Part shown: positions 42,228 to 54,645 of the stretch, one piece after another
How the letters are laid out: the number at the start of each line of letters is the position of its first letter
Position numbering within the stretch: the first letter of the stretch is position 1
DNA from: Bacteroidales bacterium
GTDB taxonomy: Bacteria > Bacteroidota > Bacteroidia > Bacteroidales > WCHB1-69
DNA: 64,000 nucleotides
NCBI GenBank assembly: GCA_017651425.1
Contig: JAGCCZ010000001.1
Span: 6,222 to 70,221 of the forward strand
Reading direction: 5' to 3'
Position numbers and translations under genes: made by a program
Notes under the pieces: generated by a model
Databases searched by the model: none
What the model was told of the DNA's origin: nothing
Seen by the model: only the letters and a program-made list of their open reading frames with translations

Positions 42228-42255
42228 CAGCCTTAAAATAAAATCATATCAAGAC

Positions 42256-44304
42256 ATGGAAAATCCTAAACGATACACGGTTACCTCTGCCCTGCCCTAC
42301 GCCAACGGCCCCGTCCACATCGGCCACCTCGCCGGCGTCTATATCCCTGCCGACATCTACGCGCGCTACCTGCGCAACAACGGCAAGGAGGTGCTCTTCA
42401 TCGGCGGCTCCGACGAGCACGGCGTGCCCATCACCATCAAGGCCCGCAAGGAGGGCGTGACCCCGCAGGACATCGTGGACCGCTACCATAACATCATCAA
42501 GCAATCGTTCGAGGACCTCGGCATCTCCTTCGACATCTACTCCAGAACCTCCAACCCCACCCACCACGAGACCGCCGCCGCCTACTTCAAGAAACTGTAC
42601 GACGAGGGCAAGCTCATCGAGAAGACCTCTATGCAGTACTACGACGAGGAGGCCAAGCAGTTCCTCGCCGACCGCTACATCACCGGCACGTGCCCCCACT
42701 GTAAGAACGAGCACGCCTACGGCGACCAGTGCGAGGTGTGCGGCACCTCCCTCAACGCCACCGACCTCATCGACCCCAAGTCGGCACTCAGCGGCAACAC
42801 CCCTGTGCTGAAGGAGACCAAGCACTGGTATTTGCCTTTGGACCAGTACGATCCGTGGCTCCGCGAGTGGATCCTCCAGGGGCACAAGGACGACTGGCGC
42901 CCCACGGTGTATGGCCAGTGCAAGTCGTGGATTGACCAAGGGCTGCAGCCCCGCGCCGTCACCCGCGACCTCAACTGGGGCGTGAAAGTCCCCCTGGAAG
43001 ATGCCGATGGCAAGGTGCTCTATGTCTGGTTCGACGCTCCCATCGGCTACATCTCCGCCACCAAGGAGTGGGCCGAGGCGCACCACACCGACTGGCAGCC
43101 CTGGTGGAAAGACCAGGAGACCCAGCTGGTACACTTCATCGGCAAGGACAACATCGTGTTCCACTGCATCATATTTCCCTGTATGCTGAAGGCCGACGGC
43201 TCTTACATACTGCCCGACAACGTGCCCGCCAACGAGTTCCTGAACCTCGAGGGCGACAAGATCTCCACCTCCCGCAACTGGGCCGTCTGGGCGCACGAGT
43301 ATCTCCACGACTTCCCCGGCAAGCAGGACGTGCTGCGCTACACGCTCACCGCCATCGCGCCGGAGACCAAGGATGCCGACTTCACATGGGCCGACTACCA
43401 GGCGCGCAACAACAACGAGCTGCTGGCCATCTTCGGCAACTTCGTGAACCGCACCGTGGTGCTCACCCATAAATACTACGGAGGCATTGTGCCCGCCCCG
43501 GGCGAGTACTCCGACTACGAGAAGGAAATCGTGGCCAAGATGGCCGAGTTCCCCAAGACCATCGGCGACTCGATTGAGCATTACCGTTTCCGCGAGGCGC
43601 TGCAGGAGTTTATGAACCTGGCCCGCATCGGCAACAAGTACCTCACCGACACCGAGCCGTGGAAGAAGCAGAAGGAGAACCCCGAAGCCGTGAAGACCAT
43701 CCTGCACCTGTCGTTGCAGATCTGCGCCGCCCTTTCTGTGTTGTGCGAGCCGTTTTTGCCCTTCACTGCCAAGAAGTTGCAGCACATCCTCAACATCGAC
43801 AACAAGAACTGGCAGGATGGCGGCCGTGCCGACCTGCTGAAGGTGGGCGCGCAGCTCAACCCTGCCGAGTACCTTTTCGAGAAGATCGAGGACGCCGTCA
43901 TCGCCCAGCAGATCCAGAAGTTGGAGGACACCAAGAAGGCCAACGAGATTGCCACCGCCGAGGCCGTGGCTGCCAAGGAGGACGTCACCTTCGAGGAGTT
44001 CCAGAAGATGGACTTGCGGGTAGTCACCGTGTTGGAGGCCGAGAAGGTGGCCAAGACCAAGAAGCTGTTGAAGTTGAAGGTGAACACGGGCGTGGACGTG
44101 CGCGAGATCGTGTCGGGCATTGCCGAGTACTACGAGCCGCAGGACCTTGTGGGCAAGCAGGTGCTGATGCTCATCAACCTGGCCCCGAAGAACATCAAGG
44201 GTGTGGAGTCGCACGGAATGGTATTGATGGCCGAGCACGCCGACGGCACCCTGAGCCTGATGCAGCCGCAGAAGGCAGTGAAAGAGGGAAGTACTGTGAA
44301 ATAG
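42256..44304 (+). CDS. metG: Methionine--tRNA ligase
   Basis: HIGHLAG (HIGH) and KISTSRN (KMSKS-like) motifs, zinc knuckles CPHC/CEVC, and a C-terminal tRNA-binding domain. Confidence 0.95.
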
Positions 44305-44318
44305 ACAGGAACGCACCT

Positions 44319-45470
44319 ATGGCCGACGGATATTTGAATTTTGACGAATACATACGCCAAGGTGAACCGGCGCAGCGGGAACGGGCCGAAGCTTGGCGCG
44401 TGGCTATAGGATTGCAGGCCGTGGATGGGCTGAAGACCTCTGAGTATCTGCAAGAGACCGCCCGTCGCAACATCAAAGGGGAAATCACTATTGACGAGGC
44501 CCGTGAGATGGTGAAACAATACTATATCACCAAAACCACCCACGACGAGGATGATGGTGATAAAGCAGAAGCCGACAACGTTTCCGGAAACATTTCAAAG
44601 TTGCTTCAAACAGATACGTTTACCTATAGTGCAGCCGGGGTGGCAGCCATCCATCGGGCTATCTTCGAAGGCGTGTTCAAACACGCTGGACAATTCCGCG
44701 AATATGACATTTCAAAAAAGGAATGGGTGCTACGTGGTGACTCTGTGCTTTACGGACGTTGGCAGGATCTACGCATGGCAATAGACTACGACCTTGAACA
44801 AGAACGTCAGTTTGACTATTCAACATTGGATAAAGGACAGATAGTGGAGCATCTTGCCAAGTTTGTTGCGGGTTTATGGCAGATTCATCCGTTTCGGGAA
44901 GGCAACACTCGTACAACTGCCGTTTTCACCATCAAGTACCTGCGGGCTCAAGGTTTTCAGGTCAACAACGAAATGTTTGAGCAGCATTCGTGGTATTTCC
45001 GCAACGCACTGGTGCGCGCCAACTATCGGAATCTTGCAAAAGGGATAGGTTATGAACCGAAGTTCCTTGTGCGTTTCTTCCGTAATTTGCTGCTTGGCGA
45101 AAACAACATATTGAAGAACCGTTATATGGTAATTAATCCACCCGAAAAATGGAAGATGCCGGAAAGCGAACAAGTACCCGACAAGCACGGGATAAGCACA
45201 GGACAAGTACAGGACAAGCTGTACACCGACAACTATAATATTGTTGAGATCATTAAGGTTGTTGGGGGCAATATGTTGTCTGTAAAAGAGATGATGGCTG
45301 GTCTAAACCTCAAAGGAAGAGATAACTTTTTAAACCTTTATCTATCGCCCTCAATAGCAGAGGGGTATATCCGTCTGCTTTATCCCCAATCGCCCCGTCA
45401 CCCCCGCCAGAAGTATCTGCTGACCGTAAAGGGAATGGCCTTGTATAATGAGTTGATGAAAGGGGAATAG
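44319..45470 (+). CDS. Fic/DOC-family protein with an N-terminal VbhA-antitoxin-like helix and a C-terminal winged-helix-like tail
   Basis: The real start MADGYLNFDEY is at ATG 44319. The track ORF from 43659 runs out of frame through metG. The Fic motif region reads HPFREGNTRTTA. Confidence 0.8.
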   Translation: MADGYLNFDEYIRQGEPAQRERAEAWRVAIGLQAVDGLKTSEYLQETARRNIKGEITIDEAREMVKQYYITKTTHDEDDGDKAEADNVSGNISKLLQTDTFTYSAAGVAAIHRAIFEGVFKHAGQFREYDISKKEWVLRGDSVLYGRWQDLRMAIDYDLEQERQFDYSTLDKGQIVEHLAKFVAGLWQIHPFREGNTRTTAVFTIKYLRAQGFQVNNEMFEQHSWYFRNALVRANYRNLAKGIGYEPKFLVRFFRNLLLGENNILKNRYMVINPPEKWKMPESEQVPDKHGISTGQVQDKLYTDNYNIVEIIKVVGGNMLSVKEMMAGLNLKGRDNFLNLYLSPSIAEGYIRLLYPQSPRHPRQKYLLTVKGMALYNELMKGE

Positions 45471-45629: not shown

Positions 45630-47138
45630 ATGGCAAAGAAAACCAATACAGCAGACCTCGGATTTGAGGATAAGATATGGAAGGCGGCTAATATTCTTCG
45701 AGGTAATATTGCAGCTGCTGAATACAAGAATGTGGTGTTAGGTCTCATTTTCTTGAAATACATTTCCGATTGCTTTGATGTTAAGCACCAACAATTAGTG
45801 GACGAAGGTGATGGTTTTGAAGAAGATAAGGACGAATACATCTCTGAAAACATCTTTTATGTGCCTACTGATGCTCGTTGGAGCGTGATTGCTAATGCTG
45901 CTCACACCCCTGAAATTGGCAAAGTGATAGACAATGCCATGATGGAAATTGAGAAAGAGAATGACCGTCTAAAAGGCATTTTGCCCAAGAACTTTGCACG
46001 ACCAGAACTGGACAAACGTCGTTTGGGTGATGTGGTAGATCTCTTCACCAACACCATTGATCTTGGAAAAGAGGAAGAAAACAAAGATCTTTTAGGCCGC
46101 ACATACGAATATTGTCTCGCCAAGTTTGCATCGCTTGAAGGCAAGAATGCTGGTGAATTTTATACACCAAGTTGTATTGTACGAACAATCGTAGCTGTTC
46201 TTCAGCCTTTCAAAGGGCGTTGTTATGACCCGGCAATGGGAAGTGGCGGAATGTTTGTGCAAAGTGCAGAATTTGTACGCCATCATCAGGGTGACATTAA
46301 GAATCTTTCTATTTTTGGTCAAGAGTTTGTTGCCGAGACGCGCAAGATGGCCATGATGAACCTCGCTATCCGCGGCATTGAGGCCAATTTGGGCGAAAAG
46401 AACGCAGATACTTTTTTCGATGACCAGCATCCGACTTTGAAAGCCGATTTTGTGATGGCCAATCCTCCATTCAATATGAGTGATTGGGGTGCAGATAAGC
46501 TGCAAGATGATGTGCGTTGGAAATACGGCATTCCTCCGGCGGGCAATGCCAACTTTGCTTGGATGGAACACATGATCAGCCATCTCTCTCCGACAGGTCG
46601 GATAGGTTTGGTATTGGCCAACGGTTCTTTGAGCAGCCAGACGGGTGGTGAAGGAGAGATTCGTAAAAACATCTTGCAGGCCGACTTGGTGGAAGGCATT
46701 GTGGCGCTTCCCAGCCAGTTGTTCTACAGTACAGGCATTCCTGTTTGTCTTTGGTTCTTATGCAGGCAAAAAGCACAACCCGGCAAGGTACTTTTCGTTG
46801 ATGCCCGCAATATGGGCAAGATGGTGACACGCAAGCTGCGTGAGCTGACCGAAGCCGATATTGAGCGCATTGCCCAGACCTTTACCGATTACCGGAATGG
46901 CACACTCACTGATGAAAAAGGTTATTGCGCCGTTAAGACACTTGATGAGGTGGCTGCGCAAGACCATATCCTAACTCCCGGCCGTTATGTGGGCATTGCC
47001 GAGCAGGAGGATGATGGGGAACCTTTTGAGGAGAAGATGAATCGCCTCACCACCGAATTGAGCGGACTTTTCCAAGAAAGCCATAGATTGGAAGAGGAAA
47101 TAAAGAAACAGTTGGGGAGCATTGGTTTTTTTGTTTAA
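45630..47138 (+). CDS. hsdM: Type I restriction-modification system, N6-adenine DNA methyltransferase subunit
   Basis: HsdM N-terminal domain (LRGNIAAAEYKNVVLGLIFLKY), then GEFYTP, DPAMGSGGM and MANPPF. Confidence 0.93.
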   Translation: MAKKTNTADLGFEDKIWKAANILRGNIAAAEYKNVVLGLIFLKYISDCFDVKHQQLVDEGDGFEEDKDEYISENIFYVPTDARWSVIANAAHTPEIGKVIDNAMMEIEKENDRLKGILPKNFARPELDKRRLGDVVDLFTNTIDLGKEEENKDLLGRTYEYCLAKFASLEGKNAGEFYTPSCIVRTIVAVLQPFKGRCYDPAMGSGGMFVQSAEFVRHHQGDIKNLSIFGQEFVAETRKMAMMNLAIRGIEANLGEKNADTFFDDQHPTLKADFVMANPPFNMSDWGADKLQDDVRWKYGIPPAGNANFAWMEHMISHLSPTGRIGLVLANGSLSSQTGGEGEIRKNILQADLVEGIVALPSQLFYSTGIPVCLWFLCRQKAQPGKVLFVDARNMGKMVTRKLRELTEADIERIAQTFTDYRNGTLTDEKGYCAVKTLDEVAAQDHILTPGRYVGIAEQEDDGEPFEEKMNRLTTELSGLFQESHRLEEEIKKQLGSIGFFV

Positions 47139-47150
47139 TTTCAAATCTAA

Positions 47151-47987
47151 ATGATTCCTAATATGAAAGATATGTTTTATCCAAATATCGAATTTCTGAA
47201 TATTGATGATTTAAATGTCTTTTTGGGAGACATGCCTGTTTTGTATAAATATATGCCGTTGGAGAACACTTTAAATACTTTGAAAAATAAAACAATATGG
47301 TTAGCTGACCCTAAAACATGGGAAGATCCTTTTGAAAAGAGATTCCTCAATGCTAAATATAAGAATTCAAAGGGGGTAGAAATGGTATTTCCGTATTCGG
47401 GAAAAACATTTGCAACATGTTTAACACGCAATCCATCCAGTGAAGCTCAATGGAATGTATACTCAAGAAATGAAATTGGAATCAAATTTAAAATAAGTAC
47501 AAAAGTACTTCTTGAACAATTGAATAAATTCTCACAAAATCATCCTAAATACAAGGTGTATTTTGGAAAGGTTGAGTATCACAAAAGAGAAGAAATAGAA
47601 CAAACACAACTATCTAAATTGACATTTGAAGCAGAAAGAAAAGGAGTTAAAATAAACAAGAGTTTGCAAAATAAAGACTTTTGCGCTCGTTTGTTTCTTT
47701 TAAAAAGACGTGATTTTGAATATGAAGACGAGGTTCGTATAATTGTTTTTAAGGATATTAAGAATACTGCGGCAGGAATCAGCTTTGATTATACTTGTTC
47801 TAACAGTATGATCTTTCCTCAATTAACAATTTCACCTCGTGTAAAAAACAATGTTGAAAACATGCTAAAAGAATACCTTATCCAATTCGGCATGAATCCT
47901 CTTGTAGACAGCCTCGGGAGAAAACAACATCGCGTTGTTAAAAGCCATCTTTTTGATGACGAAAACGAGGTTACAATAAGCATATGA
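47151..47987 (+). CDS. DUF2971-family protein embedded in the R-M operon
   Basis: VLYKYMPLENTLNTLKNKTIWLADPKTWEDPFE, AQWNVYS..IGIKF and LLKRRDFEYEDEVRII match my recollection of the DUF2971 signature. It starts 12 nt after the hsdM stop. Confidence 0.7.
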   Translation: MIPNMKDMFYPNIEFLNIDDLNVFLGDMPVLYKYMPLENTLNTLKNKTIWLADPKTWEDPFEKRFLNAKYKNSKGVEMVFPYSGKTFATCLTRNPSSEAQWNVYSRNEIGIKFKISTKVLLEQLNKFSQNHPKYKVYFGKVEYHKREEIEQTQLSKLTFEAERKGVKINKSLQNKDFCARLFLLKRRDFEYEDEVRIIVFKDIKNTAAGISFDYTCSNSMIFPQLTISPRVKNNVENMLKEYLIQFGMNPLVDSLGRKQHRVVKSHLFDDENEVTISI

Positions 47988-48037
47988 CATTAACTTGGAT
48001 AAAAGATATGTTAGGAAATAGACTTTATTATTAAAAT

Positions 48038-48466
48038 ATGGAAACGATAGTACAATGGACAACAATCTTAAGCCCGATTATTGCGGTTATTATAGCAATA
48101 TTGATGGTTAGAAGCAGCAATAGAGATACTGCCAAACAAATTGAGAGCATTAAGGAAAGTACCTCTCGTCAGATTGAAAGTATCAAGAACTTATCCAGAC
48201 AAATGATAGATTCTTCCATTAAACAAGTGGAATTAGAAATAGAAAAGACCCTTATTCTAGCACAACAAGCACAACAAGAATGGGAAGGTGTTGAAGAGAT
48301 TAATCGTTCTGGATTATCTCACATGGTATCTTTTAGAAATGAAGCTATGAGACAGTATCACGAGGAAAAGCCTAAAAGAGATCATCAGTTATATTCCTCA
48401 TCTATTAAGAATCTTCAGGCTATTAAGAAAGACCTGGAAGCTCATAAAAAAGAATTGAACTCATAA
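48038..48466 (+). CDS. Small protein with one N-terminal TM helix and a coiled-coil tail
   Basis: 142 aa. The TM segment is WTTILSPIIAVIIAILMV. It has heptad-like repeats KQIESIKESTSRQIESIKNLSRQ. Its stop TAA 48464-48466 is 1 nt before the hsdS ATG. Confidence 0.6.
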   Translation: METIVQWTTILSPIIAVIIAILMVRSSNRDTAKQIESIKESTSRQIESIKNLSRQMIDSSIKQVELEIEKTLILAQQAQQEWEGVEEINRSGLSHMVSFRNEAMRQYHEEKPKRDHQLYSSSIKNLQAIKKDLEAHKKELNS

Positions 48467-48467
48467 T

Positions 48468-49631
48468 ATGGAAGAGTGGAAAGAATATAGGTTGGGAGAT
48501 ATAGCGGTTGTAACCATGGGACAATCACCAAATTCCTCTTATTATAACAATGTAGGAGATGGAGTGCCATTTCTGCAAGGCAACAGAACTTTTGGAATGA
48601 AATATCCAACTTTTGATACGTTCACTACTTCTGCCACAAAATACGCCGAAGGAAACGACGTAATTATGAGTGTACGAGCACCTGTAGGGGATGTGAATAT
48701 TACTCCAATAAGAATGTGCTTGGGGCGTGGACTATGTGGGTTGCGTTTAAACAATGGTAATCAGGAGTTTTTGTATTATTTGATGCGTTATTACGCTAAT
48801 AATCTGATTAACAAAGAATCAGGAACGGTTTTTGGGTCTATCAATCGCAATGATATTGCAAATCTTATAGTGAGAGTCCCGTCATTTGAACTTCAGAAAA
48901 AAATAGCCTATATATTATCTTCCTTTGATGACAAAATCGAAGTAAATCAGCGTATAAATGATAATTTAGAGCAACAAGCCACAGCTTTATTCAAGTATTG
49001 GTTTGTGGATTTCGGGCCATTCAAGGATGGCGAGTTTGAGGAAAGTGTATTGGGAATGATACCTAAAGGGTGGAGAGTGGGAAAACTATTAGATGTTGCA
49101 AATATCACGATGGGAACTTCACCTGTAGGTTCAAGTTATAATGTGACAGGAGAAGGAGATGTTTTTTATCAAGGTCGAGCAGAATTTGGTTTTAGATTTC
49201 CAAAGAGAAATATGTACACTACAGAGGCCAAGAGATTTGCTGATATTGATAGCGTTTTGTTAAGTGTCCGTGCTCCTGTTGGAGATATTAATGTTGCAGA
49301 TGAAAGATGTTGTATTGGTCGAGGGTTAGCTTCGATTCAATCGAGGGATGGGAACAACTCTTACATTCTATATTTGATGAAAAGTCTGTATCCACAATTC
49401 GAAAAGTATAATAGCGAAGGCACTGTTTTTGGGTGTATTAATAAGAAAGCATTGGAACAATTAGCTGTGGTGACTCCTCCGAATGAAACGATAAGTAGAT
49501 TTGATAAAATATGCAGTGAAATAGATGGCCAAATTAAAATACTTGATCAAGAAACCCGCCGACTTGCCACCCTTCGGGACACATTATTGCCGAGATTAAT
49601 GTCAGGAAAGTTAAAAGTAAATGAATTATAA
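48468..49631 (+). CDS. hsdS: Type I restriction-modification system, specificity subunit
   Basis: Two target-recognition domains are separated by conserved helices (LEQQATALFKYWFVDF and LATLRDTLLPRLMSGKL). Confidence 0.9.
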   Translation: MEEWKEYRLGDIAVVTMGQSPNSSYYNNVGDGVPFLQGNRTFGMKYPTFDTFTTSATKYAEGNDVIMSVRAPVGDVNITPIRMCLGRGLCGLRLNNGNQEFLYYLMRYYANNLINKESGTVFGSINRNDIANLIVRVPSFELQKKIAYILSSFDDKIEVNQRINDNLEQQATALFKYWFVDFGPFKDGEFEESVLGMIPKGWRVGKLLDVANITMGTSPVGSSYNVTGEGDVFYQGRAEFGFRFPKRNMYTTEAKRFADIDSVLLSVRAPVGDINVADERCCIGRGLASIQSRDGNNSYILYLMKSLYPQFEKYNSEGTVFGCINKKALEQLAVVTPPNETISRFDKICSEIDGQIKILDQETRRLATLRDTLLPRLMSGKLKVNEL

Positions 49632-49639
49632 GTACTACT

Positions 49640-51475
49640 ATGAGAATTAAGAAAGTAATTATTGACAATTTTAAATCCATTGATCATATTGATTTAGATT
49701 TTGACAAGGTCGGGGATAGTTATACGAAGATTTTTGTAGGTATAAATGAGTCTGGTAAAAGTAATATATTAGAGGCATTATCATATTTCAAGGTTCCGGA
49801 TAATAATGTTTCTTTCGATAGTTACTGTAACCAAAAGATTGAAGACAGGGATATATGCAGTATCCTCTTCGAATTAGAATTTGAGCCTAATACGCCATTT
49901 GTCCTTAATGAAAAAAAAGGAAAAGGACAAGGTTTAAATCTCTCTCTTTCTAATATTACCAAGAAAGTGTATCTTTCCAAGGGTGCAAATAGGTTTGATC
50001 ACTCCTATAGTTTTGATATACAATTATTAGATGCTAATCTTTTTATAAAAAAAACACCAACACCAAATCAATATGGCATTGGTCGTGGTGTTAACGATAG
50101 TATTGTGCCTGAATCAGAAAAAGATGATAATTCCGAACCGCTCACAATTAAGCATGTTGAACATATTTATAATGACACCATAATAAAGTATATTGAAAAT
50201 AATGAACCTTCAGTTTCCGTGTGGAAAGCGTCATCGGAATATTTATTCTCAAATGTTAATTTGAATGCTTTCGCGCAAAATATCGATTCAAATAAACCAT
50301 TAAAAAATATTTTCCATTTAAGTGGTTTTAAAGATCAACCATCTATTGTCGAAGCAATTAGCAAGGTTAGAAACCCTAAAAACAGAAGTATTCTTTCAAG
50401 TAGATTAAATGAATCCTTAAACAATTATATAAACAAGGTCTGGAGTAATAAAATAAACATTGTTATTGAGATAACTGAAACTGGTGCATTGTCTTTTCTT
50501 ATTAAAGATCAGGGTGCAGAAAATGAGCACAACCGCTTTGATATAACGGAAAGAAGCCAAGGTGCTCAACAATTCTTGTCACTTATTTTATCATTATCCC
50601 TTGAAGCCGAAAATCAAGAAAGAAAAAATGAATTGATCTTGATAGATGAACCTGAAACACACTTGCATCCTTCTGGTATTAGGGATTTAGGACGAGAATT
50701 ACTAAAAGTTGGAAAAGAAAATTATGTTTTCTTAGCAACACATTCTCCTTTCATCATTGATAAAAGTCATAAGGAGAGACATTATATTGTGAAAAAGGAC
50801 AAGAAATCTATCACAGAAATAAAAAGAATAAGAGAAAGTGACAACATTATTGATGATGAAGTGCTTAATGAGGCATTTGGAATCAATGTATATCAAGATC
50901 TATTAAATCCTCATAGCGTTTTGGTTGAAGGAGCATCTGATAAAGTTATCTTGCAAAAAGTTTTTTCTCTATTGGGCCGGAAAGATATTGGAATCACTAA
51001 CGGACATGGAACAAATATTGATACATTGGCTTCGAAAATGAACTTTGATAATATTTCTGTTTTAGTTGTTACTGACGATGACAAAGATGGTAAAAAATAT
51101 AAAGAAAAAATACTCAAAATAGGTGGCGTGTTTAATGAGAATAATGTTTTCACTATTCGTGATCTGGAAGGTAGAATTGTTGATCAAGGAACCATTGAGG
51201 ATACGTTAGGTATAGGATACGTTAAGTCTCAATTTCAAGAATTCTATAGGAATAGATTTGATGAGGAATTGTCGGATTTTGATCTATTAGATGATAGAAC
51301 TGTTATTTCACAAATCGAAGAATTCTTGAAAGGTAAAAGAAAATTCAGCAGTTGGGATATGGATGCTTTTAAGAAGCTTGTTTCTGATAATTTCAATCCC
51401 GGTAAATCTGCTTTAAACAAACAATTTGGAATTTTGAAGGGTTTAGCGGAAAAAATGATTGAAAAGTTGAATTAA
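49640..51475 (+). CDS. OLD-family-like ABC-type ATPase fused to a TOPRIM nuclease domain
   Basis: Walker A GINESGKSN, signature-like RSQGAQQF, Walker B LILIDEPETHLHP and LATHSPF. The TOPRIM motifs are VLVEGASDKV and VLVVTDDDKDGKK. Confidence 0.8.
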   Translation: MRIKKVIIDNFKSIDHIDLDFDKVGDSYTKIFVGINESGKSNILEALSYFKVPDNNVSFDSYCNQKIEDRDICSILFELEFEPNTPFVLNEKKGKGQGLNLSLSNITKKVYLSKGANRFDHSYSFDIQLLDANLFIKKTPTPNQYGIGRGVNDSIVPESEKDDNSEPLTIKHVEHIYNDTIIKYIENNEPSVSVWKASSEYLFSNVNLNAFAQNIDSNKPLKNIFHLSGFKDQPSIVEAISKVRNPKNRSILSSRLNESLNNYINKVWSNKINIVIEITETGALSFLIKDQGAENEHNRFDITERSQGAQQFLSLILSLSLEAENQERKNELILIDEPETHLHPSGIRDLGRELLKVGKENYVFLATHSPFIIDKSHKERHYIVKKDKKSITEIKRIRESDNIIDDEVLNEAFGINVYQDLLNPHSVLVEGASDKVILQKVFSLLGRKDIGITNGHGTNIDTLASKMNFDNISVLVVTDDDKDGKKYKEKILKIGGVFNENNVFTIRDLEGRIVDQGTIEDTLGIGYVKSQFQEFYRNRFDEELSDFDLLDDRTVISQIEEFLKGKRKFSSWDMDAFKKLVSDNFNPGKSALNKQFGILKGLAEKMIEKLN

Positions 51476-51489
51476 TTTACTTCAGCAAT

Positions 51490-54400
51490 ATGTCAGACTT
51501 CAACGAAGATCATTACGAGCAGACGCTGATTGAGCTGTTTAAAGAGCGATTGGACTACAAGTATCTCAACGGCTACGAGGCACAAGAGGCATTTGAGGAC
51601 AAGGACTACTATTGTCCTGTCTATCTCGAACGGCTGCAGATGAAACTGCGCGACCTCAATCCCAAACTGCCGCAATCGGCACTCGATGAAGCGGAGCGGA
51701 AGTTGCTTCATATTGAAGCGGGCAATATGGTTCAGAACAACGAGCTCTTCATGGACTACCTGCAACATGGCGTGGAGGTGACCTTTCATGATGGTCATGA
51801 GTTGAAGAATGACATTGTTTATCTGGTTGATTATAAAGATATCTTAGAGAATGACTTCCTACTGGCGAACCAATGGACATTCGTGGAGAAGTCTAAAAAA
51901 CGCGCCGATTTAATCCTTTTCCTTAACGGTCTGCCTGTAGTGTTGATGGAACTGAAATCGCCTTCGCGCGAAGAAACCGATGCCAGCGCCGCTTACCGCC
52001 AACTCAAAAACTATATGAAGGAGATTCCTACCATGTTCACCTACAATGTATTCTGTGTAATGAGCGATATGGCGGAATCAAAAGCAGGCACCATCACCTC
52101 CAACGAGGATCGTTTTATGCAATGGAAATCAAAAGATGGCGTCTATGAAAGCACAGAGGTGGTGGATTACGATGTGTTCTTCGAGGGAATGTTCCGAAAG
52201 GAGAGGCTGTTGGATATTATCCGCAATTTCGTCTGCTACAGCAAGGACGAGGGAAAGGACAACAAGATATTGGCAGGTTACCATCAGTATTTTGCGGTGA
52301 AGAAAGCGGTGGAGCGTACCAAATTGGCGGTCACTGGCGATGGAAAGATCGGCGTATTTTGGCACACCCAGGGCAGCGGCAAGAGTCTCTCGATGGTGTT
52401 TTATGCCCATCTGCTGCAATCCACTATTTCGCAACCAACCATTGTGGTCATTACCGACCGTAACGACCTTGACAATCAACTTTATAGTCAGTTTGCCAAG
52501 TGCAAGGATTTTCTGCGACAAGTGCCAGTGCAAGCCATTTCTCGTCAGCATTTGCGCGAACTACTTGAGGGCCGCACAGCCAATGGCATCATATTTACCA
52601 CAATGCAGAAGTTCGAGGAATACGATGCGCCATTGTCCACCCGCCGAAACATCATTGTGATGAGCGATGAAGCCCATCGCGGGCAGTACGGTTTTGAGGA
52701 GAAGATTGACCCGGCGACAGGAAAAGTCAGCGTCGGCACCGCCCGTCTCATCCACGATTCGCTGCCTCACGCCTCGTTCATTGGCTTCACCGGCACCCCT
52801 ATCGCCAAGACAGACCGAAACACCATCGAGGTGTTTGGTGACTGCATTGATGTGTATGATATGACGCAGAGCGTTTTGGACCACGCCACCGTACCAGTCT
52901 ATTACGAAAGCCGCGTCATCAATCTCAAACTTGACGACGAGACGCTCCAACTTATCGACAAAGAATTTGAACTTTTGGAAGCGGAAGGTGCCGATGCACA
53001 GCAAGTTGAAAAGAGCAAGCGAGACCTCTCGCATCTTGAAGAGCTGCTTGGAGCTGATTCCACCATAGATTCGTTGGTACAAGACATTCTTAACCACTAT
53101 GAAAACTATCGTGAGCAAGAACTGACCGGCAAAGCGATGATTGTGGCATACAGCCGCCCGATTGCTATCAAGATATACAAGCGAATACTTGAATTGAGGC
53201 CTGAATGGACGGAGAAGGTGAAATGCGTAATGTCAGGCGACAACAATGACCCCGAGGAATGGCACAACATCATTGGCAACAAGCAGTACAAACAAGAACT
53301 GGCGAAGAAGTTCAAGGATGACAATGATCCGATGAAGATTGCCATAGTGGTTGATATGTGGCTCACGGGGTTCGATGTTCCATCCTTGGCTACAATGTAC
53401 GTTTTCAAGCCACTGAATGGGCACAACCTGATGCAGGCCATTGCCCGTGTAAACCGCGTGTTCAATGGGAAAGAAGGCGGTCTGGTGGTCGATTACATCG
53501 GCATCGCACAAGCTTTGAAGTCGGCTATGAAATTTTACAGCGCTCACGACCGTCAAAAGTTCGGTGATCCGGACATCAAGACCACCGCCTTGAAAAAATT
53601 CCAGGAGGAGTTGGAAATCTGTCGCGATCTGATGCACGGTTTCGATTATTCAAAGTTCAAAGATTCTTCAGACCTGAAACGGGCTGAACTCATCAAAGGC
53701 GGCACCAACTTCCTGCTGTCCAAAGATATGCAGGAGAAGAAATCGGACTATATGAAACACGCCACCTTGCTGCACCAGTCCATCACACTGTGTCGCAGCC
53801 TGCTCAATGAAAACCAACGTTGGGAAAGTGCCTTTTTTGAGACGGTGCGTGTGATGATTCTGCGTTTGAGCGGCAAAGGAAAGATAACCAAGAAGGAAAT
53901 CGACGAACGCATCCGTGAACTGCTGAAACAGAGCGTAAAGAGCGAAGGCGTCATCAACCTGTTCCAAGACGCTGGCAAAGAGTTTTCATTAAACGATCCT
54001 GCTTTCTTGGAAGAGTTGACCAAGATGAAGGAGAAGAACATCTCCATCCAAATTTTGGAAAACCTGTTGAAAGACAAGGTGAAAGCGTTCCAACACAAGA
54101 ATCTCGTGCAAAGTGAGAAGTTTTCTGAGCTGCTGAACCATGCGTTAAGCAACTATCTGAAAGGGATGTTGACCAATGAAGAGGTGATTCAGGAATTGCT
54201 CAAGTTGGCATCGCAAATCAAGGAAACCGAGCAACAGGGCAATGAGCTTGGTTTGACCGATGAGGAAAAGGCCTTTTATGATGCGCTGACGCGTCCACAA
54301 GCGGTGCGAGACATTTATGAGAACGACGAATTGGTGGCTATGACCAAGGAACTGACCGAAACACTCCGCAAGAATCGCACCATCGACTGGCAACACAAAG

Positions 54401-54645
54401 AGTCTGCCCGTGCGGGCATGCGCAAGATGGTGAAACGACTGTTGAAGAAATACAAATATCCGCCCGAGGAGGCTGAGCACGCCATGGACATTGTGCTGAA
54501 GCAGTGTGAGGAGTGGGCGGACGAAGATGAATACACTGTGACAGAACCGAAAGTCATACGGTTTTATTCTCAAAAAGAGGAAGAATCTAGGAATATTGCT
54601 GCTGAAGACGAATTACCGTACAACACTGAATTTATTGAATCATAA
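51490..54645 (+). CDS. hsdR: Type I restriction endonuclease, R subunit
   Basis: 1051 aa with an N-terminal nuclease region (ADLILFLNGLPVVLMELK), then TQGSGKS and the DEAH box SDEAHRGQ. Confidence 0.93.
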   Translation: MSDFNEDHYEQTLIELFKERLDYKYLNGYEAQEAFEDKDYYCPVYLERLQMKLRDLNPKLPQSALDEAERKLLHIEAGNMVQNNELFMDYLQHGVEVTFHDGHELKNDIVYLVDYKDILENDFLLANQWTFVEKSKKRADLILFLNGLPVVLMELKSPSREETDASAAYRQLKNYMKEIPTMFTYNVFCVMSDMAESKAGTITSNEDRFMQWKSKDGVYESTEVVDYDVFFEGMFRKERLLDIIRNFVCYSKDEGKDNKILAGYHQYFAVKKAVERTKLAVTGDGKIGVFWHTQGSGKSLSMVFYAHLLQSTISQPTIVVITDRNDLDNQLYSQFAKCKDFLRQVPVQAISRQHLRELLEGRTANGIIFTTMQKFEEYDAPLSTRRNIIVMSDEAHRGQYGFEEKIDPATGKVSVGTARLIHDSLPHASFIGFTGTPIAKTDRNTIEVFGDCIDVYDMTQSVLDHATVPVYYESRVINLKLDDETLQLIDKEFELLEAEGADAQQVEKSKRDLSHLEELLGADSTIDSLVQDILNHYENYREQELTGKAMIVAYSRPIAIKIYKRILELRPEWTEKVKCVMSGDNNDPEEWHNIIGNKQYKQELAKKFKDDNDPMKIAIVVDMWLTGFDVPSLATMYVFKPLNGHNLMQAIARVNRVFNGKEGGLVVDYIGIAQALKSAMKFYSAHDRQKFGDPDIKTTALKKFQEELEICRDLMHGFDYSKFKDSSDLKRAELIKGGTNFLLSKDMQEKKSDYMKHATLLHQSITLCRSLLNENQRWESAFFETVRVMILRLSGKGKITKKEIDERIRELLKQSVKSEGVINLFQDAGKEFSLNDPAFLEELTKMKEKNISIQILENLLKDKVKAFQHKNLVQSEKFSELLNHALSNYLKGMLTNEEVIQELLKLASQIKETEQQGNELGLTDEEKAFYDALTRPQAVRDIYENDELVAMTKELTETLRKNRTIDWQHKESARAGMRKMVKRLLKKYKYPPEEAEHAMDIVLKQCEEWADEDEYTVTEPKVIRFYSQKEEESRNIAAEDELPYNTEFIES

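What the first reader, a model, noticed from the sequence alone, without database searches (positions are those of the whole stretch)
47151..48466. DUF2971 protein plus a small single-pass coiled-coil membrane protein as a possible two-gene sensor/effector pair
Seen: a 278-aa ORF with DUF2971-like motifs (LYKY...W.ADP..WEDPFE, FEYEDEVRII) is followed 50 nt later by a 142-aa ORF. That ORF has one N-terminal TM helix and repeated KQIESIK-type heptads, and its stop abuts the hsdS start codon. Both are among the most AT-rich genes in the window. Established: DUF2971 has no assigned function. Small TM proteins are frequent abortive-infection effectors in defence operons. Inference: the pair may form an independent module lodged between hsdM and hsdS. 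Alternatively the TM protein may tether or regulate the methylase/specificity complex.
Basis: partly seen in the sequence, partly recalled or inferred. Interest (0 to 1): 0.72.

Follow-up and report, generated by a model that had tools for sequence, protein, structure and literature searches.

The report
Not a pair: ART cargo, hsdS-coupled membrane protein
The two genes are real but are not partners: one is a known kind of stand-alone anti-phage gene (a DarT-like ADP-ribosyltransferase) dropped into a Type I restriction operon, and the other belongs to an undescribed family of small membrane proteins that almost always sits directly in front of the restriction system's specificity gene.

Summary
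Both ORFs exist as described. The 278-aa ORF is a true DUF2971 protein (Pfam 40 bits, cut-off 22; PADLOC PDC-S31 E=6e-42). Its model (pLDDT 93) matches only DarT DNA ADP-ribosyltransferases at the top of the PDB search. DUF2971 does have an assigned function: it is classed as ART-like, and a single DUF2971 gene (Aristaios) is a validated antiphage system.

The "pair" reading fails. Against the closest relative operon, the DUF2971 gene is a clean ~900-bp indel. Its relatives also sit beside GmrSD, after an RT/iREC system and on plasmids, without the small ORF.

The small ORF is under purifying selection (median dN/dS 0.17). Its family has 514 close relatives and 126 clusters at 50% identity, with no match in Pfam, NCBIfam, PHROGs or PADLOC. 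In 27 of 33 dereplicated clusters it ends −8 to +16 nt from the hsdS start, in operons with three different HsdR types. Only 3 of 16 have DUF2971 upstream.

All 202 members tested predict an N-out/C-in topology: a cytoplasmic coiled-coil hairpin on a conserved TM helix. A distant clade sits in a hypervariable spot of Bacteroidales phages.

Best reading: autonomous ART cargo, plus an hsdS-coupled membrane accessory protein. Its mechanism (tether or regulator) is inferred, not shown.

The parts
45630..47138 (+). hsdM (Type I methyltransferase, 502 aa), operon backbone
   Evidence: Pfam HsdM_N + N6_Mtase, E=4e-104; PADLOC MTase_I. It is 94% identical to L001 HsdM and 91% to L011 HsdM. GC 45.9%.
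47151..47987 (+). DUF2971 / PDC-S31 gene: DarT-like ADP-ribosyltransferase fold, single-gene cargo cassette. The start may be the ATG at 47163, as in the public annotation.
   Evidence: PF11185 at 40.3 bits against a cut-off of 22; PDC-S31 E=6e-42. AF2 pLDDT 93. The top 7 PDB matches are all DarT, E=1.7e-4 to 8.7e-3. Y104 and Y191-E192-x-E194-x-R196 are invariant. Clean indel against L020. GC 31.7%, the 1.3 percentile of the window.
48038..48466 (+). Small membrane protein (142 aa) of an undescribed family that abuts hsdS
   Evidence: 514 homologues and 126 clusters at 50% identity among 1.84 billion proteins, never fused to another domain. No family in Pfam, PADLOC, NCBIfam or PHROGs. Median dN/dS 0.17. 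The hsdS start lies within -8..+16 nt in 27 of 33 clusters.
48041..48109 (+). Transmembrane helix (residues ~2-24) with a conserved S12-P13 and a small-residue face (S12, A16, A20)
   Evidence: AF2 helix 2-24. Family mean hydropathy 2.10. K+R is greater on the C-flank than the N-flank in 202 of 202 members, which predicts N-out/C-in. This is the most conserved segment of the family.
48134..48247 (+). Juxtamembrane 11-residue repeats (KQIESIKESTS / RQIESIKNLSR / ...), the start of the cytoplasmic coiled-coil hairpin
   Evidence: Read directly from the sequence. The number of repeat copies varies among members, for example P0179 and P0196. AF2 helix 30-90 with pLDDT up to 94.
48468..49631 (+). 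hsdS (specificity subunit, 387 aa); its ATG is one base after the small ORF's stop codon
   Evidence: Pfam Methylase_S x2, E=1e-37; PADLOC Specificity_I. Only the central conserved region (48911-49083) aligns with L020 at DNA level.
49640..51475 (+). OLD-family ATPase-TOPRIM gene (611 aa), a second embedded cargo gene
   Evidence: AAA_15 E=5e-27 and OLD-like_TOPRIM; PADLOC Old E=2e-30 and AriA E=1e-29. Absent from L011, where it is an indel, and present in L001/L020. GC 31.2%.
51490..54645 (+). hsdR (restriction subunit, 1051 aa), operon backbone
   Evidence: HSDR_N, SWI2_SNF2 and T1RH-like_C; PADLOC REase_I E=1e-284. GC 47.8%.
44322..45470 (+). Fic-domain gene immediately upstream of hsdM (same island, not part of the finding)
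   Evidence: Pfam Fic + Fic-like_C; PADLOC PDC-S72 E=1e-117.

Best explanation
The region is one Type I restriction-modification operon: hsdM - [slot 1] - small gene - hsdS - [slot 2] - hsdR. Two unrelated cargo genes have been dropped into it.

Slot 1 holds the DUF2971 gene. It is an autonomous single-gene cassette of the Aristaios / PDC-S31 kind. Its fold is that of DarT, an NAD+-dependent DNA ADP-ribosyltransferase. It most likely acts as an abortive-infection toxin that ADP-ribosylates nucleic acid when triggered by infection. This last step is inferred from fold, conserved Tyr/ExE residues and literature.

Slot 2 holds an OLD-family nuclease.

The small ORF is not DUF2971's partner. It is a backbone gene of a set of Bacteroidales Type I operons. 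It is positioned for translational coupling with hsdS (stop and start within a few bases, or overlapping). It encodes a single-pass N-out/C-in inner-membrane protein whose cytoplasmic part is an antiparallel coiled-coil hairpin.

The most likely role is a membrane-anchored accessory factor for HsdS-containing complexes. It would hold or gate the methylase/restriction enzyme at the inner face of the membrane where foreign DNA enters. This role is inferred.

Shown: the gene order, the coupling to hsdS, independence from DUF2971, purifying selection, predicted topology and folds. Inferred: physical contact with HsdS, and the tether/regulator role.
For: Architecture:
- In 10 of 10 first-look loci, hsdS follows the small ORF immediately, and none has DUF2971.
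- In the full census of 36 clusters at 90% identity, 33 have at least 300 nt downstream. In 27 of those the hsdS start lies within -8..+16 nt.
- Distant members P0171, P0206 and P0177 behave the same way.
- The position holds in operons with three HsdR C-terminal types: T1RH-like_C (window, L001, L011), EcoR124_C (L004) and EcoEI_R_C (L065, L067).
- At short evolutionary distance the small gene stays with hsdM while the TRDs are swapped. L049 vs L050: small 97%, HsdM 95%, TRD1 24%, TRD2 21%.

DUF2971 as independent cargo:
- Clean indel against L020.
- Other contexts are GmrSD/PIN/AbiH, RT-HisKin-conflict/iREC and Klebsiella and Vibrio plasmids.
- No conserved neighbour.
- It has the lowest GC in the window, together with the OLD gene.

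ART assignment:
-.
- PMC12522546 describes DUF2971 as ART-like, close to DarT/AbiGi, with a conserved Tyr and an ExE motif.
- PMC11381338 shows that Aristaios, a single DUF2971 gene, gives phage resistance with an Abi phenotype.
- PDC families come from the guilt-by-embedding study (10.1101/2024.01.29.577857).

Small protein:
- Purifying selection.
- TM helix plus helical hairpin.
- C-in topology predicted in 202 of 202 members.

Literature context:
- Family-dependent cellular localisation of Type I enzymes has been studied (Holubova et al. 2004). I know it only as reference B31 in PMC2481252 and did not read it.
- Embedded genes in Type I operons are established: PrrC (PMC12707154) and TgvAB (PMC11411939).
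Against: - No interaction between the small protein and HsdS was tested.
- The small protein does not co-evolve with the Hsd proteins, as a tight subunit would be expected to. L011 shares 91% HsdM and 85% HsdR with the window, but the small protein is only 43% identical. Operons with 31% HsdM identity have small proteins 59-62% identical.
- Conservation is highest in the TM and juxtamembrane part, not in the coiled coil that would have to contact HsdS.
- A distant clade occurs in phage morphogenesis regions with no hsd genes.
- One member (L027) lies inside a Type I operon but not before hsdS.
- The census is ascertained through the proteins themselves and is dominated by rumen and gut metagenome contigs. 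Independence of the clusters is therefore imperfect.
- For DUF2971, the DarT matches have modest TM-scores (0.31-0.43). No DarG-like antitoxin is present. No similarity to the Aristaios sequence itself could be checked.
Confidence: 0.5

Rival explanations
1. First reader's model. DUF2971 and the small TM protein form a dedicated two-gene sensor/effector (Abi) module lodged between hsdM and hsdS.
For: They are adjacent and co-oriented, 50 nt apart. The same adjacency recurs in L011. Both are AT-rich.
Against: L011 shares the window's operon backbone (HsdM 91%), so that recurrence is not independent. L001/L020 has the small ORF without DUF2971, and the difference is a clean indel. DUF2971 is upstream in only 3 of 16 clusters. 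In L017-L019 two other genes lie between them. Four of 7 DUF2971 contexts lack the small ORF. Small-protein identity between the two adjacent cases is only 43% while DUF2971 is 65%.
Confidence: 0.04
2. The small protein is an autonomous membrane-acting conflict gene. It would work without touching the R-M enzyme, as a superinfection-exclusion factor or an abortive-infection effector that oligomerises in the membrane. It merely rides in the hsdS-proximal slot.
For: - Conservation peaks in the TM helix, with a small-xxx-small face and Ser-Pro.
- It does not co-evolve with HsdM or HsdR and has been exchanged across families.
- Phage-borne relatives sit in a hypervariable accessory spot: flanking genes are 95-100% identical, the small gene 64-81%.
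- Other small TM or lipoprotein ORFs also occur in the same slot: the L031 94-aa ORF and the L004 127-aa ORF.
- From my own knowledge: small single-pass phage proteins such as HK97 gp15 act as exclusion factors.
Against: An autonomous gene has no reason to keep the exact position abutting the hsdS start in 27 of 29 non-phage clusters and in three Type I families, while true cargo genes (DUF2971, AAA_14, ATPase_2, AbiJ, OLD) take variable positions. The predicted C-in topology puts the large domain in the cytoplasm, which is not where injection is blocked. The hsdS-linked clade was not found in 2.9 million viral contigs.
Confidence: 0.22
3. PrrC-like guard. The small protein is held inactive by binding HsdS or the methylase. 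When a phage anti-restriction protein disables the enzyme, it is released and damages the membrane.
For: It is almost exclusive to Type I operons, as PrrC is (10.1101/2024.01.29.577857, Fig. 6 legend on PrrC). The close or overlapping stop and start with hsdS would give matched dosage. The TM helix is conserved. The guard logic is established for PrrC/EcoprrI (PMC12707154). Fast-evolving phage-borne homologues could act as decoys or antidotes.
Against: There is no evidence of toxicity. One TM helix with a long soluble hairpin is not a typical pore former. The small protein does not co-vary with Hsd proteins. There is no similarity to any PADLOC effector.
Confidence: 0.14
4. Regulator rather than anchor. 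The small protein shifts the enzyme between modification and restriction, or limits assembly. This would be functionally like restriction alleviation or lambda Ral. The phage copies would then be captured anti-restriction factors.
For: Coupling to hsdS. Phage-borne, rapidly diversifying relatives nest near the 'TSKDATRQIESIK' subclade, which is itself hsdS-linked. Lambda Ral is a small phage protein that changes EcoKI to de novo methylation (PMC3874165).
Against: This model gives no reason for a conserved membrane anchor. There is no sequence or fold similarity to Ral or any known regulator. It is untested.
Confidence: 0.1

Closest known systems
Aristaios (Lactococcus plasmid single-gene antiphage system, DUF2971) and PADLOC candidate PDC-S31
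   Same: Both carry the DUF2971 domain. The window protein gives a strong PDC-S31 HMM hit. Both have an ART-like predicted fold (PMC11381338) and stand alone with no conserved partner. PDC candidates were defined by being embedded in BREX/DISARM/Type I R-M (10.1101/2024.01.29.577857).
   Different: The window protein is 278 aa against 316 aa for Aristaios, and comes from Bacteroidales, not Lactococcus. No direct sequence comparison with Aristaios was possible: tblastn against plasmids listed no Lactococcus among the ten most frequent genera. Antiphage activity is untested here.
DarT toxin of DarTG toxin-antitoxin systems
   Same: DarT structures are the best and only significant structural matches, filling ranks 1-7. 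Tyr and ExE-type acidic residues are invariant, as described for DUF2971 in PMC12522546.
   Different: Sequence identity is 7-13% and TM-scores 0.31-0.43, with large helical inserts. No DarG-like macrodomain antitoxin lies next to it in any context seen. The substrate is unknown.
PrrC in the EcoprrI locus and TgvAB in Vibrio cholerae VPI-2 (defence genes embedded in Type I R-M operons)
   Same: Extra genes lie in the same orientation between hsd genes. They are thought to complement or guard the R-M enzyme (PMC12707154; PMC11411939).
   Different: PrrC is an ABC-ATPase anticodon nuclease and TgvAB are GmrSD-like. Neither is a small membrane protein. DUF2971 is not restricted to Type I operons. 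The small protein keeps a fixed position at the hsdS start, unlike known embedded cargo.
Canonical three-gene Type I R-M systems (HsdR2M2S1; families IA-IE)
   Same: hsdM, hsdS and hsdR are present with all expected domains. There is cassette-like variation of hsdS TRDs.
   Different: A fourth conserved gene for a membrane-anchored coiled-coil protein is inserted between hsdM and hsdS. It occurs in operons with three different HsdR types. I found no description of such a component in the reviews consulted (PMC3874165; PMC12707154).
Rz-type i-spanins and phage superinfection-exclusion proteins (small N-terminal-TM coiled-coil proteins)
   Same: Similar size, one N-terminal TM helix and two coiled-coil helices with a hinge. 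Some relatives are phage-borne.
   Different: The only hit to a spanin family is non-significant (phrog_739, E=0.29). The predicted topology is C-in, not periplasmic. No o-spanin, holin or endolysin lies adjacent.

Membership tests
DUF2971 (Pfam PF11185) | Match to the family HMM above the curated gathering score | tested here: met
   E=8.4e-10, 40.3 bits against a cut-off of 22, covering the full 89-position model.
DUF2971 as ART-like superfamily member (per PMC12522546) | ADP-ribosyltransferase fold closest to DarT | tested here: met
   AF2 model pLDDT 93. PDB ranks 1-7 are all DarT, E=1.7e-4 to 8.7e-3, probability 0.85-1.00. TM-scores are modest at 0.31-0.43.
DUF2971 as ART-like superfamily member (per PMC12522546) | Strictly conserved Tyr (motif II) and ExE (motif III) | tested here: met
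   Y104 and E192-x-E194 are invariant in 30 homologues. Their assignment to the motifs is by analogy with the paper's description, not by superposition.
Aristaios / PDC-S31 single-gene defence | Match to PDC-S31 models | tested here: met
   PDLC04993 E=6e-42, residues 31-250, plus three further PDC-S31 models.
Aristaios / PDC-S31 single-gene defence | Acts alone, with no conserved partner gene | tested here: met
   The downstream neighbours differ in 7 contexts: small TM ORF, 321-aa, 244-aa, 109-aa, EcsC-family, 181-aa hypothetical.
Aristaios / PDC-S31 single-gene defence | Confers phage resistance | not testable with these tools
   Needs a phage challenge of the cloned cassette.
DarTG toxin-antitoxin | Adjacent DarG macrodomain antitoxin | tested here: not met
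   No macrodomain among the neighbours in the window or related loci.
Type I R-M system | hsdM, hsdS and hsdR with their signature domains in one operon | tested here: met
   N6_Mtase/HsdM_N, Methylase_S x2, and HSDR_N/SWI2_SNF2/T1RH-like_C.
   DUF2971 is upstream in 3 of 16 small-ORF clusters. Four of 7 DUF2971 contexts lack the small ORF. DUF2971 is a clean indel against L020.
PrrC-type R-M-embedded guard | Near-exclusive location inside Type I operons | tested here: inconclusive
   Small ORF: inside Type I operons in 29 of 33 clusters, with 4 in a phage clade. DUF2971: not exclusive.
PrrC-type R-M-embedded guard | ABC-ATPase plus anticodon-nuclease domains | tested here: not met
   Neither protein has such domains.
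Rz-type i-spanin | Periplasmic coiled-coil domain (N-in/C-out) and a cognate o-spanin within a lysis cassette | tested here: not met
   The positive-inside rule gives C-in in 202 of 202 members. phrog_739 E=0.29 only. No lysis genes nearby.
Any curated family for the small protein (Pfam, NCBIfam, PHROGs, PADLOC, PDB) | Significant HMM or fold match | tested here: not met
   No hit passes a cut-off. The best recurrent weak hit is DUF6680, in 5 of 34 members at E>=0.0077. The PDB profile best is E=0.0032, to an unrelated coiled coil. Foldseek gives no hit at E<=1e-3 in PDB or BFVD.

The most novel reading that the evidence does not exclude
Some Bacteroidales Type I restriction enzymes have a fourth, membrane-anchored component. 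It would be made together with HsdS and would place or gate the enzyme at the inner membrane. Temperate phages would have captured and rapidly diversified copies of it as a counter-measure. This would mean that a class of enzymes treated as three-subunit soluble machines for decades can be spatially organised by a dedicated protein.
Probability: 0.22. Interest if true: 0.8.

Novelty: new variant of a known kind. Interest (0 to 1): 0.5.

Why it matters
The DUF2971 half adds little. It is one more embedded copy of a catalogued, partly validated kind of single-gene defence.

The small protein is the part worth attention. It is an uncatalogued family with a very strict genetic coupling to hsdS, in operons with three different HsdR C-terminal types. 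It has a conserved transmembrane helix and fast-evolving relatives in phages.

If it does partner HsdS, it offers a concrete handle on an old, thinly explored question: where in the cell Type I enzymes act, and how self-restriction is avoided. If instead it is an autonomous membrane effector or a PrrC-like guard, it is a new small defence gene.

Either way, it should be included when Type I systems of Prevotella or Bacteroidales are cloned, or removed to make these gut and rumen bacteria transformable.

Tried and rejected
- **Small ORF as a chance ORF or untranslated leader.** Rejected by 514 homologues and dN/dS 0.17.
- **Small ORF as a split or fused part of HsdS.** Rejected. All 126 representative clusters are short stand-alone proteins of at most 179 aa. 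The junction with hsdS occurs in different frames and spacings.
- **Known-family assignment for the small protein.** Pfam, NCBIfam, PHROGs, PADLOC, a PDB sequence profile, and Foldseek against PDB and BFVD gave only sub-threshold hits or generic coiled coils.
- **Spanin or exclusion-protein reading.** Weakened by the uniform C-in topology prediction.
- **The small gene travels with the adjacent TRD1 of hsdS.** Rejected by L049/L050: small 97% identical, TRD1 24%.
- **Tight co-evolution of the small protein with HsdM or HsdR.** Rejected across families, although they correlate at short distance (Spearman 0.60).
- **Repeats flanking the DUF2971 gene as an insertion footprint.** These are an 18-nt inverted repeat (47167-47184 / 47995-48012) and a 14-nt direct repeat. 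About three such matches are expected by chance in AT-rich sequence (my estimate), and in L011 the 15-nt gap between DUF2971 and the small ORF leaves no room for such a repeat. Not pursued.
- **Promoter and terminator scans.** They gave no excess over shuffles. Bacteroidales promoters are not covered by that consensus.
- **Viral-contig scan with the divergent alignment A3.** It failed for lack of a conserved stretch. Scans with A1 and P0187 were used instead.
- **Direct comparison with Aristaios.** Not possible. tblastn against plasmids listed no Lactococcus among the ten most frequent genera.
- **PDB profile search with the DUF2971 alignment.** It found nothing. Only the fold comparison reached DarT.
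Full report
**Observation.** The window carries a co-directional gene array:

| Gene | Coordinates |
|---|---|
| Fic | ~44322-45470 |
| hsdM | 45630-47138 |
| 278-aa ORF | 47151-47987 |
| 142-aa ORF | 48038-48466 |
| hsdS | 48468-49631 |
| OLD-family ATPase-TOPRIM | 49640-51475 |
| hsdR | 51490-54645 |

The 278-aa ORF passes the Pfam DUF2971 model (40.3 bits, cut-off 22). It hits PADLOC PDC-S31 at E=6e-42 and phrog_1762.

The small ORF has no hit in any library. It does have a strongly hydrophobic N-terminus and an 11-residue repeat (KQIESIK... / RQIESIK...).

Both ORFs are AT-rich: 31.7% and 34.7% GC against 50.8% for the window. The OLD gene is the same (31.2%). hsdS is intermediate (37.6%), and hsdM and hsdR are 46-48%.

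**The DUF2971 gene.**
- Thirty homologues share invariant D59-P-F-E62, C90, W101, Y104, G139, K185 and Y191-E192-x-E194-x-R196.
- The AlphaFold2 model is confident (pLDDT 93, pTM 0.89).
- Its seven best PDB matches are all DarT DNA ADP-ribosyltransferases (E=1.7e-4 to 8.7e-3). Other ART-fold proteins (TreTu, KptA) follow at non-significant E-values (0.39-3.3). TM-scores are modest.
- This agrees with PMC12522546, which places DUF2971 among ART-like families near DarT and AbiGi, with a conserved Tyr and an ExE motif.
- It also agrees with PMC11381338, where a single DUF2971 gene, Aristaios, gave phage resistance with an abortive-infection phenotype.
- PADLOC's PDC families derive from a survey of genes embedded in BREX, DISARM and Type I R-M loci (10.1101/2024.01.29.577857).

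This gene is a new member of a catalogued kind.

**Is it paired with the small ORF? No.**
- The closest relative operon (L001/L020; HsdM 94%, HsdR 92% identical) reads hsdM-small-hsdS-OLD-hsdR. At DNA level the window differs from it by a clean indel at ~47130-48033 that contains only the DUF2971 gene.
- L011 has hsdM-DUF2971-small-hsdS-hsdR but lacks OLD.
- L017-L019 have hsdM-DUF2971-321 aa-AbiJ-small-hsdS.
- More distant DUF2971 relatives sit beside GmrSD/PIN/AbiH, after an RT/HisKin-conflict plus iREC system, and on Klebsiella and Vibrio plasmids. None of these has a small-ORF homologue or an hsd gene.
- The downstream neighbours of DUF2971 are unrelated to one another.

**The small ORF.** It has 514 homologues at E<=1e-3, nearly all 138-142 aa. 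An exhaustive profile search of 1.84 billion representatives found 126 clusters, all short stand-alone proteins. Median dN/dS is 0.17 over 106 pairs.

I assembled 62 loci from context look-ups and from scans of reference genomes, metagenomes and viral contigs. I annotated them with HMMs built from the window's proteins.

After dereplication at 90% identity there are 36 clusters, and 33 have at least 300 nt downstream. In 27 of those the hsdS start lies -8 to +16 nt from the small ORF's stop. The six exceptions are:
- one with a second 94-aa TM ORF interposed (L030/L031);
- one inside a Type I operon but between hsdS and hsdR (L027);
- four from a phage clade.

Upstream, among 16 clusters with hsdM in reach:
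- hsdM abuts the small ORF in 7;
- other cargo intervenes in 6 (AAA_14/DUF4143 plus a lipoprotein-like ORF, ATPase_2, an unknown 328-aa protein, and others);
- DUF2971 abuts in 2;
- DUF2971 lies further upstream in 1.

The arrangement recurs in operons whose HsdR carries T1RH-like_C, EcoR124_C or EcoEI_R_C C-terminal domains. All named source genomes are Bacteroidales: Prevotella, Butyricimonas, and rumen or gut MAGs.

**Structure and topology of the small protein.**
- AlphaFold2 gives helix 2-24 (TM), a long helix 30-90, and helices 99-141 folding back on it. pLDDT is above 90 in the hairpin core.
- Foldseek finds only generic antiparallel coiled coils in PDB and BFVD, with nothing at E<=1e-3.
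- In 202 of 202 family members, Lys+Arg is richer on the C-terminal flank of the TM helix. By the positive-inside rule this predicts N-out/C-in, so the hairpin is cytoplasmic.
- Conservation is highest in the TM helix and juxtamembrane segment (residues 7-36). S12-P13, A16 and A20 are nearly invariant and form a small-residue face. Conservation is lowest in the C-terminal half.

**Evolutionary behaviour.**
- At short distances the small gene stays with hsdM while the TRDs are swapped. L049 vs L050: small 97%, HsdM 95%, TRD1 24%, TRD2 21%. L038 vs L039: 99%, 96%, 100%, 27%.
- Over longer distances it is decoupled. L011 shares 91% HsdM with the window but only 43% of the small protein. Operons with 31% HsdM identity have small proteins 59-62% identical to the window's.
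- The gene has therefore been exchanged between Type I families, yet each time it occupies the position abutting hsdS.

**The phage clade.** A distant subclade (P0187, L025/L026, L056-L058, L060-L062) lies in a co-directional array with a head maturation protease (phrog_53, E=7e-52). It occurs in IMG/VR viral contigs. There the flanking genes are 95-100% identical between contigs, but the small gene is only 64-81% identical, and adjacent indels are present. dN/dS is also higher, at 0.38-0.55. That is how a phage accessory gene under conflict behaves. Its nearest sequence relatives, the 'TSKDATRQIESIK' type (P0206, P0177), are again hsdM-small-hsdS. The main hsdS-linked clade was not found in viral contigs.

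**Interpretation.** The operon is a mosaic: a backbone of hsdM-small-hsdS-hsdR, with two optional cargo slots filled here by DUF2971 and OLD. These are the two lowest-GC genes in the window. This fits the known habit of Type I operons to host embedded defence genes, such as PrrC (PMC12707154) and TgvAB (PMC11411939).

DUF2971 most likely acts alone as a DarT-like ADP-ribosylating abortive-infection toxin. This is inferred.

For the small protein, the fixed position and near-overlap with hsdS argue for a functional tie to HsdS, and the topology puts its hairpin where HsdS is. I therefore favour a membrane-anchored accessory role, as tether or gate. Cellular localisation of Type I enzymes has been reported as family dependent (Holubova et al. 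2004, seen only as a reference in PMC2481252).

This mechanism is not shown. The lack of co-evolution with Hsd proteins, the TM-centred conservation and the phage relatives keep three rivals alive: an autonomous membrane effector or exclusion factor, a PrrC-like guard, and a Ral-like regulator (Ral: PMC3874165).

**Limits.**
- Loci were ascertained through the two proteins themselves.
- Many contigs are short.
- Sampling is dominated by rumen and gut metagenomes.
- No multimer prediction or experiment was possible.

**Verdict.** The pair hypothesis is not supported. DUF2971 is a new member of a known kind. The hsdS-coupled membrane protein is an undescribed accessory of Type I operons, which makes the whole a new variant of a known kind.

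Noticed in passing
window 49640-51475: An OLD-family ATPase-TOPRIM gene (AAA_15 + OLD-like_TOPRIM; PADLOC Old/AriA/GajA-like) is embedded between hsdS and hsdR. It is present in L001/L020 but is an indel relative to L011. With DUF2971, it has the lowest GC in the window (31.2%).
   Followed up: partly
window 44322-45470: A Fic-domain gene lies immediately upstream of hsdM. It matches PADLOC candidate PDC-S72 (E=1e-117) and has a weak VbhA-antitoxin-like N-terminal hit. The defence island therefore starts right after metG.
   Followed up: no
L056 5001-5453; L025 7992-8387; L060-L062: Phage-borne relatives of the small protein sit in a hypervariable spot of otherwise near-identical Bacteroidales phage genomes. 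Flanking genes are 95-100% identical and the small gene 64-81%, with neighbouring indels. The spot is downstream of a head maturation protease.
   Followed up: partly
L031 4840-5124 (also L030): A second, unrelated 94-aa ORF with one TM helix and a coiled-coil tail lies between the small ORF and hsdS. Its start overlaps the small ORF's stop by 4 nt.
   Followed up: no
L004 5621-6004: A 127-aa ORF with a lipoprotein-type signal peptide (…PLMGYC…) overlaps the start of the small ORF by 4 nt, downstream of an AAA_14/DUF4143 ATPase. It is one more small envelope protein in the same slot.
   Followed up: no
L027 3028-4690 and 7818-8261: This Type I operon has a YhcG/DUF1016 PDDEXK nuclease and a 136-aa RNA_pol_A_CTD-like protein in front of hsdS. 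Its small-protein family member lies between hsdS and hsdR, ahead of an unknown 339-aa ORF. It is the one clear exception to the hsdS-abutting rule.
   Followed up: partly
window 47163-47184 and 47995-48012: An 18-nt inverted repeat (89% complementary) and an overlapping 14-nt direct repeat bracket the DUF2971 gene. I estimate this is within chance expectation for AT-rich sequence, and in L011 the 15-nt gap after DUF2971 leaves no room for it.
   Followed up: partly
window 42256-44304: metG is 60.5% GC, well above the window mean of 50.8% and the adjacent island. This produces a long spurious antisense ORF (42244-44316, 690 aa).
   Followed up: no
P0179, P0196, P0231, P0233, P0264 (family members): The juxtamembrane 11-residue unit (…KQI.ALE.ST…) is present in a variable number of copies between family members, giving proteins of 130-165 aa. 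The length of the membrane-proximal helix is therefore not fixed.
   Followed up: no
L015/L016 215-5401: A DUF2971 relative directly follows an RT (RVT_1 + HisKin-conflict) gene and an iREC gene, and is itself followed by HATPase_c_3, Methyltransf_35 and PAPS_reduct genes. This looks like a composite conflict island worth separate study.
   Followed up: no
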